Positions 41,301 through 41,371 of a stretch of 64,000 bases of DNA are shown here, one piece after another. The stretch lies in IMG/VR virus record IMGVR_UViG_3300024341_000001; one strand, 5' to 3'. The position numbers and the translations under genes are program-made. The DNA comes from a virus. Taxonomy: Duplodnaviria; Heunggongvirae; Uroviricota; Caudoviricetes. Position 1 is the stretch's first letter. Each line of letters opens with the position of its first letter. A model generated the notes under the pieces. It searched no databases and had not been told where the DNA came from. It worked only from the letters and a program-made list of their open reading frames with translations.

Positions 41301-41371
41301 CCCAAATGGTAGGATTCGAACCTACATTTTCCGCGATACCAATGTTATGGTTACGCCTTATGTGCATTTGG
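41301..41371 (-). ncRNA. tRNA-like element: perfect 7-bp acceptor-like stem and canonical T-arm, but a non-canonical D/anticodon core
   Basis: Sense sequence: CCAAATG...GTAGG-TTCGAAT-CCTAC-CATTTGG-G. The 39-nt core cannot be folded into standard D and anticodon arms. Confidence 0.45.

What the first reader, a model, noticed from the sequence alone, without database searches (positions are those of the whole stretch)
41301..41371. Non-canonical tRNA-like element (perfect acceptor stem plus T-arm, aberrant core)
Minus-strand sense: CCAAATG-[39 nt]-GTAGG TTCGAAT CCTAC CATTTGG G. The 7-bp acceptor-like pairing and the textbook T-arm are very unlikely by chance. However, position 8 is C, and no D-stem or anticodon stem with U33 can be drawn. 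It is therefore either a tRNA-mimic module, as in YrlA Y RNAs and some viral tRNA-like structures, or a recent pseudo-tRNA.
Basis: seen in the sequence. Interest (0 to 1): 0.6.

Follow-up and report, generated by a model that had tools for sequence, protein, structure and literature searches.

The report
tRNA-like stub in phage Y-RNA array
The element is a real stripped-down tRNA look-alike (acceptor stem plus T arm only) sitting directly in front of a Y RNA, in a row of five Y RNAs and one true tRNA just upstream of a phage Ro60 gene, where it most likely serves as a handle for the cell's tRNA-cutting enzymes.

Summary
The context settles its kind. The next gene downstream on the same strand is a Ro60/Rsr orthologue (39031-40692). 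The ORF-poor stretch upstream of it holds five Y-RNA-like units, each starting with G-N-C-G-A-A...GUUAUC, and one genuine tRNA-Ala.

The element ends 2 nt before the covariation-supported terminal helix of one of these Y RNAs (41299-41190). Relatives keep the acceptor stem and T arm with compensatory changes, while the interior varies from 8 to 134 nt. So it is neither a decoding tRNA nor plain decay.

In unrelated metagenomic tRNA arrays, real tRNAs occupy the same position, 6-7 nt before a Y motif. My best reading is a minihelix recognised by RNase P and a 3' tRNA-processing nuclease, which releases the Y RNA's 5' end. It might instead stay attached as a tRNA-mimic module.

It is not a YrlA member: its topology is not permuted, it has no D arm, and the Rfam YrlA model gives no hit. 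I rate it a new variant of a known kind, of moderate interest.

The parts
41301..41371 (-). The tRNA-like minihelix, i.e. the finding. Acceptor 5' strand 41371-41365 (CCAAAUG); interior 41364-41326; T stem, loop and stem 41325-41309 (GUAGG UUCGAAU CCUAC); acceptor 3' strand 41308-41302 (CAUUUGG); discriminator G41301.
   Evidence: Sequence. Rfam tRNA model 23.4 bits, acceptor and T arm only. No cloverleaf from ARAGORN. Chance expectation 0.007 per window. Acceptor and T stem covary across 7 related elements: 98.8% of cells paired and 11 of 12 pairs with double changes; G53, U54, U55, C56, A58 and C61 are invariant.
41335..41357 (-). Degenerate Y-RNA 5' motif inside the element: GGCGUAACCAUAACAUUGGUAUC. 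It forms the interior hairpin (41356-41333).
   Evidence: It matches the relaxed motif GNCGNN-N5-14-G[GU]UAUC. That motif occurs in 64 of 200,000 shuffles of the interior and in 0.13% of real 39-mers of the window. This is a post hoc observation and the motif is not conserved in the L010 and L011 orthologues.
41190..41299 (-). Y RNA 'Yd', which begins 2 nt after the element's discriminator. It has a terminal helix UAUCGGGU/AUCCGGUA, an internal loop carrying CGAAUC, a second helix GGCUUGG/CCGAGCU, GUUAUC, two hairpins and then a U-run.
   Evidence: Conserved in L008, L010 and L011. RNAalifold finds 23 pairs, 7 with compensatory changes. Examples: terminal helix UAUCGGGU/AUCCGGUA versus AAUUAGGGU/AUCCUAAUU versus UUUCGGC/GCCGAAA; second helix GCUUGG/CCGAGC versus ACUCGG/CCGAGU.
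42161..42225 (-). Y RNA 'Ya', a hairpin-type Y RNA: GGGGUCGUUGAUACAGCGUUAUCCCGUUAAGAUAAAACCGCUG...
   Evidence: Motif scan, fold, and a 7-sequence alignment with compensatory changes, including a locus whose Rsr is only 42% identical.
42078..42151 (-). Genuine tRNA-Ala(UGC), followed by CUA rather than CCA and then directly by Y RNA Yb.
   Evidence: ARAGORN. Rfam tRNA model 65.1 bits.
41998..42074 (-). Y RNA 'Yb'. Its terminal helix GCUGAGU/…UUCAGC starts 4 nt after the discriminator of tRNA-Ala.
   Evidence: Motif GUCGGACGCAAGAUCGUUAUC at 42069; fold.
41870..41993 (-). Y RNA 'Yc' (GGGGUCGAAUCAAUCAUCGUUAUC ... CCGGUGGUUAAACAUUAUCCCU). Orthologues in L001, L010 and L012 carry a T-arm-like hairpin inside; the window copy does not.
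   Evidence: blastn match to L001 2621-2755; motif; folds.
40726..40926 (-). Y RNA 'Ye', about 200 nt (terminal helix GAGGC/GCCUC, then CGAAC, then helix AAAGUUGG/CCGACUUU). It is followed by a U-run and then the rsr ribosome-binding site.
   Evidence: Motif GCCGAACAAAGUUGGUUAUC at 40922; fold. The same last unit precedes rsr in L010, L011, L012, L013, L024 and L026.
39031..40692 (-). rsr, the Ro60 orthologue (553 aa). The longer ORF reaching 40821 is probably an artefact, because relatives are about 552 aa and start at MNKKTPY.
   Evidence: Pfam TROVE 5e-38 and vWA_Ro60 1.8e-54. Homologues are named 60 kDa SS-A/Ro by JGI. 358 phage records carry a Ro-like protein.
41351..41530 (-). Conserved small protein gene (59 aa, RBS AAGGAG). 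Its last 7 codons overlap the 5' 21 nt of the tRNA-like element.
   Evidence: Homologues share ...RA..C.E..LDF[IV]T[LM].PL... in L001, L008, L012 and L013.
42230..42258 (-). Sigma-70-like promoter TTGACT-17-TATATT, just upstream of Ya. It is a candidate start of a polycistronic Y RNA / tRNA transcript.
   Evidence: 10 of 12 consensus matches. TTGACA-17-TATATT sits at the same place before Ya in L012 (sequence printed). This is a consensus match only; the number of such sites in the region is not above the shuffle control.

Best explanation
The window comes from an uncultured jumbo phage of about 215 kb. Upstream of its Ro60 (rsr) gene, on the same strand, lies an array of non-coding RNA genes: Ya, tRNA-Ala, Yb, Yc, a small ORF, the tRNA-like element, Yd, Ye, then rsr.

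The element at 41301-41371 is a tRNA reduced to its acceptor/T-arm 'minihelix': a 7-bp plus 5-bp coaxial stack with a canonical T loop and the G53-C61 pair. It sits where real tRNAs sit in tRNA-Y-RNA units elsewhere, with its discriminator 7 nt before the G-N-C-G-A-A motif and 2 nt before the Y RNA's terminal helix.

I infer, but have not shown, that it is read by the host's tRNA-maturation enzymes. RNase P would cut 5' of C41371. A 3' endonuclease of the RNase Z type would cut after G41301; the following CUA instead of CCA would permit this. These cuts would separate the upstream small mRNA from the downstream Y RNA, give Yd its 5' end, and release a 71-nt tRNA-like RNA that could receive CCA. 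The Y RNAs then presumably bind phage Rsr through the CGAA-containing bulged stem, as shown for other Ro60 proteins.

Shown here: the anatomy, conservation, covariation and context. Inferred: transcription, cleavage and Rsr binding.
For: - **Ro60 context.** The next gene on the same strand is Ro60.
- **Y-motif cluster.** Five Y motifs G[UC]CGNN-N5-14-GUUAUC cluster within 1.3 kb on the minus strand; 1.5 are expected in the whole window on both strands.
- **Y-RNA folds.** Each unit folds as terminal helix, CGAA internal loop, second helix. Covariation supports this for Yd and Ya. This is the Y-RNA definition used in PMC4201824 and PMC12135203. A unit of this kind in L044 hits the nematode sbRNA (Y RNA homologue) family RF01656 at 34 bits, E 3.7e-4, whose consensus reads GGUCCGG...UGGGUUAUC.
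- **Conserved array.** The same array recurs in six syntenic relatives with 55-74% Rsr identity.
- **Positional orthologues.** Those directly 5' of Yd keep the acceptor stem and T arm but not the interior: window CCAAAUG/CAUUUGG with 39 nt, L010 AUAUGCG/CGCAUAU with 134 nt, L011 UGAGCUA/AAGCUCG with 8 nt. The covariation score is 1.10 against 0.31 in shuffles, and 98.8% of cells pair against 33-45% when the partner is slid.
- **tRNA-to-Y-RNA adjacency.** About 11 tRNAs or tRNA-like elements in the relatives are directly followed by a Y motif. In unrelated metagenomic tRNA arrays, Y-motif RNAs fill the spacers between tRNAs and start 6-7 nt after the tRNA end. This includes at least five cases the search pattern did not select.
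- **Precedents.** D. radiodurans Yrn2-tRNAAsp-Yrn1 is one precursor, and M. smegmatis YrlA, with a 7-bp acceptor, is cut by RNase P and receives CCA (PMC4201824).
Against: - There are no expression or end-mapping data, so transcription, cleavage and Rsr binding are all inferred.
- The close relative L008/L019 has Yd directly after the small ORF with no tRNA-like element. The element is therefore not required for making Yd.
- Each Y RNA ends in a U-run that could terminate transcription, which fits poorly with one long precursor. The promoter is only a consensus match.
- RNase P cleavage at C41371 would remove the stop codon of the overlapping small ORF, which is either a cost or an unexplained coupling.
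- Position +1 is C rather than the G that RNase P prefers.
- For the long-insert relatives, the acceptor partners were found by searching for complementarity. A 7/7 match allowing G-U within 500 nt has roughly a 40% chance. Pure Watson-Crick matches, as in L010b and the three 'family 2' members, have about a 3% chance each. Part of the covariation signal is therefore by construction.
Confidence: 0.55

Rival explanations
1. Tethered tRNA mimic. The element is not cut off but stays joined to Yd, giving a roughly 180-nt composite RNA with an Rsr-binding Y stem and a tRNA-like module. This would be a functional analogue of YrlA with the modules arranged side by side instead of nested. The tRNA-like part would recruit a tRNA-binding partner or protect the RNA.
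For: According to PMC4201824, each species that study characterised (three bacteria) has at least one Y RNA with a tRNA-like domain. In this window the element is the only tRNA-like module besides tRNA-Ala, and the window's Yc has lost the T-arm-like hairpin that its orthologues carry. Only 2 nt separate the acceptor helix from the Yd terminal helix, so the two could stack. L044/L049 carry tRNA-shaped RNAs with a Y motif in place of the anticodon arm right before rsr. The element's interior itself carries a degenerate Y motif.
Against: A perfect 7-bp acceptor with a canonical T arm is precisely what makes M. smegmatis YrlA an RNase P substrate, so the junctions are likely to be cut. L008 has Yd without the module. 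Real, presumably released, tRNAs occupy the same position in other arrays. The D arm and the D/T-loop tertiary contacts that define YrlA mimicry are absent.
Confidence: 0.22
2. Decaying pseudo-tRNA. A tRNA that once preceded Yd, as tRNA-Trp, tRNA-Asn and tRNA-Arg do in other arrays, lost its D and anticodon arms, partly to the extending small ORF. What remains has no function.
For: Real tRNAs with G73 followed by CUA and a Y RNA are common. L010b's T arm and tail (UUCGAUUCCUGUCGC...GCUAAUG.GCCG) resemble the tRNA-Trp-Y units of L043 and L060. The interior is not conserved between orthologues, and L008 lacks the element altogether.
Against: Both stems are perfect, and the T loop keeps every tRNA-invariant base. 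Orthologues differ at nearly every acceptor position yet stay paired. Neutral decay should break 12 bp of pairing as fast as it removed the rest of the tRNA.
Confidence: 0.12
3. Phage attachment-site (attP) core or other recombination remnant that copies the 3' end of a host tRNA gene.
For: Phage attP sites often carry the T arm and 3' acceptor strand of a host tRNA (established knowledge).
Against: An attP does not need the 5' acceptor strand, yet it is present and covaries. The element sits in a conserved ncRNA array, not next to an integrase. The sequence differs among relatives in a compensatory way rather than matching one host tRNA.
Confidence: 0.02
4. An unusual but functional decoding tRNA (for example D-armless or intron-containing), or a chance match.
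For: The 7-bp acceptor, T arm and 71-nt length are tRNA-like.
Against: There is no anticodon arm with a 7-nt loop and U33. ARAGORN finds nothing down to 70% stringency, and intron or mitochondrial modes give only implausible folds in a different register. The interior length is 8-134 nt in orthologues. For the chance reading: 0.007 expected per window, plus conservation.
Confidence: 0.02

Closest known systems
YrlA (Rfam RF02553), the tRNA-mimicking Y RNA encoded next to bacterial and mycobacteriophage rsr (Chen et al. 2014, PMC4201824; Wang et al. 2018, bioRxiv 10.1101/312249)
   Same: It is encoded within 1 kb of rsr on the same strand, has a canonical T arm, is associated with the GNCGAA Rsr-site motif, and is a tRNA mimic that does not decode. 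Like M. smegmatis YrlA it has a 7-bp acceptor, the feature that makes that RNA an RNase P substrate.
   Different: YrlA is circularly permuted: Rsr-site strand, V, T arm, closed acceptor stem-loop, D arm, 3' strand. Here the strand order is that of a normal tRNA, the acceptor stem is open, there is no D arm, and the Rsr-type stem is a separate neighbouring RNA rather than enclosing the tRNA-like domain. The Rfam model gives no hit; the positive control scored 36 bits.
Polycistronic Y RNA / tRNA precursors (D. radiodurans Yrn2-tRNAAsp-Yrn1; PMC4201824)
   Same: Y RNAs and a tRNA are interleaved upstream of rsr on one strand, implying maturation by tRNA-processing enzymes.
   Different: Here there are five Y units, one of the 'tRNAs' is reduced to a minihelix, and the tRNA-to-Y spacing is fixed (7-9 nt from discriminator to GNCG). 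Co-transcription is not demonstrated.
tRNA-like processing signals such as MALAT1 mascRNA / MEN-beta and the tRNA-like elements of murine gammaherpesvirus 68 (named from memory and from the introduction of bioRxiv 10.1101/312249)
   Same: A non-decoding tRNA-like fold placed next to another functional RNA, so that RNase P and/or RNase Z define that RNA's ends.
   Different: Those are eukaryotic or nuclear systems with a full cloverleaf-like fold. Here the system is bacterial or phage, only the acceptor/T minihelix is present, and the partner is a Y RNA. Cleavage is untested.
Phage Ro60 with Y-RNA-like partners (Thermus phage phiLo Yrl1/Yrl2, PMC12135203; abundant ncRNAs upstream of a putative Rsr in Listeria phage CKA15, PMC12282133)
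   Same: A phage-encoded Ro60 with several Y-like RNAs just upstream, each with a 5'-3' stem flanking a bulge that carries CGAA.
   Different: The passages of those two papers that I retrieved with term searches mention no tRNA-like minihelix and no interleaved tRNA. The number of Y units is larger here.

Membership tests
YrlA (RF02553) | Encoded within about 4 kb of rsr on the same strand | tested here: met
   The element ends 609 nt upstream of the rsr start at 40692, same strand.
YrlA (RF02553) | Circularly permuted order: 5' Rsr-site strand, (V), T arm, closed acceptor stem-loop, D arm, 3' strand | tested here: not met
   The order here is acceptor 5' strand, 39 nt, T arm, acceptor 3' strand. 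Compare the Catera YrlA alignment.
YrlA (RF02553) | Conserved D arm (GUAGCUCA..GGUAGAGC type) and D/T tertiary contacts | tested here: not met
   No D stem can be drawn.
YrlA (RF02553) | [quoted passage not shown] | tested here: inconclusive
   A full motif (GUCGAAUCGG) starts 7 nt 3' of the element and belongs to Yd. Only a degenerate copy (GGCGUAA) lies inside the element.
YrlA (RF02553) | Covariance-model score at or above the gathering threshold (69 bits) | tested here: not met
   No YrlA hit at E<=10 in 40800-42400 or at E<=5 in 7 relatives. The model works on mycobacteriophage Catera (36.1 bits, E 1.6e-5).
tRNA (RF00005) | Cloverleaf with D arm and an anticodon arm (7-nt loop, U33); model score >= 29 bits | tested here: not met
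   23.4 bits, acceptor and T arm only. ARAGORN is negative down to 70% stringency.
tRNA (RF00005) | 7-bp acceptor stem stacked on a 5-bp T stem with a UUCRANY loop and G53-C61 | tested here: met
Y RNA (for the neighbouring units Ya-Ye, not the element itself) | A 5'-3' terminal stem flanking an internal loop or bulge with the (G)NCGAA Ro60 site; encoded next to Ro60 | tested here: met
   Folds; covariation for Yd and Ya; motif enrichment; a related L044 unit hits sbRNA family RF01656.
Y RNA | Physical binding to Ro60/Rsr | not testable with these tools
   Needs EMSA or RIP with the phage Rsr.
tmRNA | A tRNA-like domain formed by the 5' and 3' ends, plus a tag ORF and pseudoknots | tested here: not met
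   ARAGORN tmRNA mode is negative; the 39-nt interior is too small.
tRNA-like processing signal (mascRNA type) | Cleavage by RNase P and/or RNase Z that defines the ends of the neighbouring RNA | not testable with these tools
   Only positional evidence is available.

The most novel reading that the evidence does not exclude
The element may be the smallest member of an undescribed class of non-permuted, tRNA-ended Ro60-associated RNAs. In this class the acceptor stem and T arm are kept and the D/anticodon region is replaced by other modules.

Candidate members:
- the 71-nt window element, whose interior is a GNCG...GGUAUC hairpin;
- the L044/L049 RNAs, which have a D arm, a T arm and a Y motif in place of the anticodon arm;
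- the roughly 185-nt 'family 2' RNAs of L010, L012 and L013, with covarying 7-bp acceptors, a conserved UUUGGGCUUACU hairpin loop and a G-CUA tail.

After RNase P and RNase Z processing and CCA addition, such RNAs would be free-standing tRNA mimics that bind Rsr or another tRNA-binding factor. That would make them the mirror image of the circularly permuted YrlA. They might act as decoys in the tRNA-damage and repair conflict suggested by the adjacent PNKP, RlaP and Rnl1-type ligase genes.
Probability: 0.2. Interest if true: 0.75.

Novelty: new variant of a known kind. Interest (0 to 1): 0.55.

Why it matters
Y RNAs and Ro60 are conserved from bacteria to humans, but how bacterial and phage Y RNAs are made, and why they are so often linked to tRNA-like shapes, is unresolved.

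This locus shows a compact, testable arrangement: five Y RNAs carrying the same GGUC(C)GA...GGUUAUC signature that the Rfam consensus of the nematode sbRNA (Y RNA homologue) family shows, interleaved with a tRNA and with a tRNA cut down to the part that tRNA-processing enzymes recognise. Together with the finding that Y-motif RNAs fill the spacers of phage tRNA arrays, it suggests that tRNA punctuation is a general route of Y-RNA biogenesis in phages. It also suggests that the tRNA resemblance of YrlA may have grown out of this physical linkage.

The locus lies next to an RNA-repair cassette (PNKP, RlaP, Rnl1-like ligase). That makes it a good entry point for asking what phage Ro60 RNPs do during infection.

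Tried and rejected
- **Cultured relatives.** Megablast of 40800-42400 against cultured phages found no match. tblastn of the neighbouring primase-helicase gave only remote hits. No cultured relative or host could be named, and the cluster look-up returned no organism names.
- **Rfam.** At gathering and E-value thresholds on the window and seven relatives, only tRNAs and noise appeared, with no YrlA, Y_RNA or tmRNA for the element or the Y units.
- **ARAGORN relaxed modes.** These gave only implausible folds in another register.
- **Outward extension of the acceptor stem** seen in the single-sequence MFE (UUUGU.ACC / GGGUCGAA, z-score only -1.0). I rejected it because GGGUCGAA belongs to the covariation-supported Yd terminal helix and internal loop.
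- **Viral-contig scan with a Yd pattern.** One true hit (L019, the same type as L008) and seven coding false positives.
- **Viral scan for T loop plus GGGTCGAAT.** Six loci (L002-L007) were returned but not followed up.
- **Missing DNA.** The look-ups for P0012 and P0009 returned no DNA.
- **Unavailable reviews.** Two reviews on bacterial Y RNAs were not in the library.
- **L014** (Rsr 52% identical) has a different context, a large tRNA array, and was used only for comparison.

Full report
**Observation.** ARAGORN finds only one tRNA in the window, tRNA-Ala(UGC) at 42078-42151. The Rfam tRNA model aligns only the acceptor stem and T arm of the element and scores 23.4 bits, under its 29-bit cut-off. 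ARAGORN with thresholds lowered to 70%, with introns allowed, in mitochondrial mode and in tmRNA mode gives no credible cloverleaf. The interior folds into one 3+4-bp hairpin with a 6-nt loop. A Watson-Crick T arm with a TTCRANN loop plus a perfect 7-bp acceptor at tRNA distance is expected 0.007 times per shuffled window.

**Context.**
- The next gene downstream on the same strand is a Ro60/Rsr orthologue: Pfam TROVE 5e-38 and vWA_Ro60 1.8e-54. Its homologues are about 552 aa, so the true start is the ATG at 40692, preceded by GGGAG.
- Further upstream on the same strand lie a polynucleotide kinase-phosphatase, an RlaP nucleotidyltransferase and a T4 Rnl1-like RNA ligase.
- The identical Rsr protein is found on contigs of up to 215 kb, and no cultured phage is close.
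- Ro60 genes are common in phages: 358 records.

**The Y-RNA array.**
- In the ORF-poor stretch 40693-42413, the motif G[UC]CGNN-N5-14-GUUAUC occurs five times on the minus strand, at 42219, 42069, 41983, 41293 and 40922. About 1.5 are expected in the whole window on both strands.
- Each copy begins an RNA that folds as terminal helix, internal loop with CGAA, then second helix. That is how bacterial and phage Y RNAs are described (PMC4201824; PMC12135203).
- For Yd (41299-41190) and Ya (42225-42161), alignments with relatives show compensatory changes in these helices.
- A unit of the same kind in locus L044 matches the nematode stem-bulge RNA family RF01656 (34 bits, E 3.7e-4). These sbRNAs are Y RNA homologues, and the family consensus reads UCGGUCCGG...UGGGUUAUC.
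- From memory, human Y1 begins GGCUGGUCCGAAGGUAGUGAGUUAUC, the same signature.
- The same kind of array (several Y units, mostly with a tRNA-Ala) lies between an NT5C-like gene and rsr in six syntenic relatives with 55-74% Rsr identity.

**What the element is.**
- Its discriminator G41301 is followed by C and then by the first base of the Yd terminal helix. The GUCGAA motif starts 7 nt after the discriminator.
- tRNA-Ala is followed in the same way by Yb.
- Two relatives have an element at the same position directly 5' of Yd. L010 has ATATGCG...ACAGG TTCGATT CCTGT CGCATAT G CTA with a 134-nt interior. L011 has TGAGCTA...ATAGG TTCGAAT CCTAT AAGCTCG with an 8-nt interior. L008/L019 has none.
- A further set of roughly 185-nt RNAs in L010, L012 and L013 has the same ends: 7-bp Watson-Crick acceptors of unrelated sequence at homologous positions, a T arm and a G-CUA tail.
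- Over seven such elements, 98.8% of the acceptor and T-stem cells pair, 11 of 12 pairs show changes on both sides, and G53, U54, U55, C56, A58 and C61 are invariant.
- Caveat: the distant acceptor partners were found by searching for complementarity, so part of that signal is built in. The window's own pairing (39 nt apart, all Watson-Crick) and the three homologous family-2 pairings are not explained this way.
- What is conserved is the acceptor/T minihelix, not a D or anticodon arm. This excludes a decoding tRNA and argues against simple decay.

**Wider pattern.**
- A metagenome scan for T loop-N-GCTA-N-GGTTATC returned 41 loci.
- In many of them a genuine tRNA (Trp, Asn, Arg, Gln; discriminator G) is followed by CUA and a Y unit.
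- In the dense tRNA arrays L043, L060, L055, L062 and L029, Y-motif RNAs of 60-130 nt occupy the spacers between tRNAs and start 6-7 nt after the tRNA end. This includes cases the search pattern did not select.
- The window element therefore stands where a tRNA normally stands in a tRNA-Y-RNA unit.
- D. radiodurans makes Yrn2, tRNA-Asp and Yrn1 from one precursor. M. smegmatis YrlA, which has a 7-bp acceptor, is cut by RNase P and receives CCA (PMC4201824).

**Mechanism (inferred).** The minihelix is the part of a tRNA that RNase P, RNase Z and the CCA-adding enzyme recognise; this is established knowledge, not tested here. I therefore propose that the element is a processing handle. RNase P would cut before C41371, where U is at position -1. 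A 3' nuclease would cut after G41301, helped by CUA in place of CCA. This would free the 5' end of Yd, separate it from the small-ORF mRNA, and release a 71-nt tRNA-like RNA. A promoter-like TTGACT-17-TATATT lies just before Ya, and a similar one sits at the same place in L012, which is compatible with a polycistronic transcript.

Weak points:
- There are no RNA data.
- Yd exists without the element in L008.
- The U-runs after each Y RNA may terminate transcription.
- Cutting at C41371 would remove the stop codon of the conserved small ORF (41530-41351), which overlaps the element by 21 nt.

**Alternatives.** The main rival is that the element stays attached to Yd as a tRNA-mimic module, making a side-by-side analogue of YrlA. 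Three things favour it. The window has no other T-arm-bearing Y RNA. L044/L049 carry tRNA-shaped RNAs with a Y motif in place of the anticodon arm, right before rsr. The element's interior contains a degenerate Y motif, GGCGUAACCAUAACAUUGGUAUC (3e-4 in shuffles, post hoc). A functionless pseudo-tRNA, an attP remnant, an odd decoding tRNA and chance are all less likely, for the reasons given under the rivals.

**Comparison with known families.** The closest family is YrlA. It shares the rsr linkage, the T arm and the non-decoding tRNA mimicry. It differs in topology (YrlA is circularly permuted with a closed acceptor stem-loop) and in having a conserved D arm. The Rfam YrlA model finds nothing here, though it finds the mycobacteriophage Catera YrlA. 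The element is therefore not a YrlA member. It works most like tRNA or tRNA-like punctuation of a Y-RNA precursor. Phage Ro60 with Y-like RNAs is known (PMC4201824, PMC12135203, PMC12282133). I did not find a minihelix-type tRNA stub abutting a Y RNA, or Y RNAs filling phage tRNA-array spacers, in the papers searched.

**Verdict.** The feature is real. It is a new variant of a known kind, and I score its interest at 0.55.

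Noticed in passing
L010 2759-2943 and 3052-3217; L012 2723-2915; L013 2574-2754; possibly L001 3283-3428: A family of roughly 165-195-nt structured RNAs with tRNA-like ends: a covarying 7-bp acceptor, a T arm and a G-CUA tail. Each also has a 4-bp D-stem-like GCUN/NAGC closing a large insertion, a hairpin with a CUGCAGA loop, and a 4-bp hairpin with a conserved UUUGGGCUUACU loop. There is no Rfam match. The window element looks like a deletion derivative of this family.
   Followed up: partly
window 41351-41530 (-): A conserved small protein gene of 59-91 aa with a strong RBS and the motif LDF[IV]T[LM].PL sits inside the ncRNA array in the window, L001, L008, L012 and L013. 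In the window its last 7 codons overlap the tRNA-like element.
   Followed up: partly
window 43734-47376 (-): An RNA-repair cassette lies upstream of the array: polynucleotide kinase-phosphatase (43734-44594), RlaP nucleotidyltransferase (44582-45298) and a T4 Rnl1-like RNA ligase (46303-47376). An NT5C-like gene lies at 42414-43082.
   Followed up: partly
L043, L060, L055, L062, L029 (metagenome contigs): In dense phage-type tRNA arrays (7-34 tRNAs per locus in four of the five loci; L029 has 3), Y-motif RNAs of 60-130 nt fill some spacers between tRNAs. They always start 6-7 nt after the preceding tRNA. Several carry an internal T-arm-like hairpin.
   Followed up: partly
L044 1384-1497 and 1513-1629 (the same in L049): Two tandem tRNA-shaped RNAs with acceptor, D arm and T arm, in which the anticodon arm is replaced by a segment carrying CCGAAG and GACCGAUUAAAUUUCGUUAUC. 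They lie directly upstream of a Y RNA and rsr. They look like non-permuted counterparts of YrlA.
   Followed up: partly
L044 1303-1370: A phage Y-like RNA scores 34 bits (E 3.7e-4, just under the 38-bit cut-off) against the nematode stem-bulge RNA family RF01656. This points to deep conservation of the GGUCCG...GGGUUAUC signature.
   Followed up: no
window 41531-41869 (-): A 340-nt G+C-richer stretch between Yc and the small ORF has many hairpins, no convincing ORF, no Rfam hit and no match in L001. It may be another ncRNA.
   Followed up: no
window 40930-41180 (-); L001 3590-3660: The spacer between Yd and Ye contains CACTGGTGGAGGTGC and neighbouring sequence that is also present upstream of rsr in L001. 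It may be a further conserved RNA element.
   Followed up: no
window 41870-41993 (-) versus L001 2621-2755, L010 about 2432-2560, L012 2198-2310: Yc orthologues in relatives carry a T-arm-like hairpin (for example GCAGG UUCGAAU CCUGU in L012 and GCCG UUCAAUU CGGC in L001). The window copy has GAGCACA AAGUCC UGUGCUC instead, so the T loop has been lost.
   Followed up: partly
L008 1919-1995 and 2003-2082; L001 1579-1658: tRNA-sized elements with 7-bp acceptors and T arms that ARAGORN does not call. The interior is 42 nt in L008 1919-1995 and 48 nt in the other two. Each of the latter two is followed directly by a Y unit. The relatives therefore hold further non-canonical tRNA-like genes.
   Followed up: no
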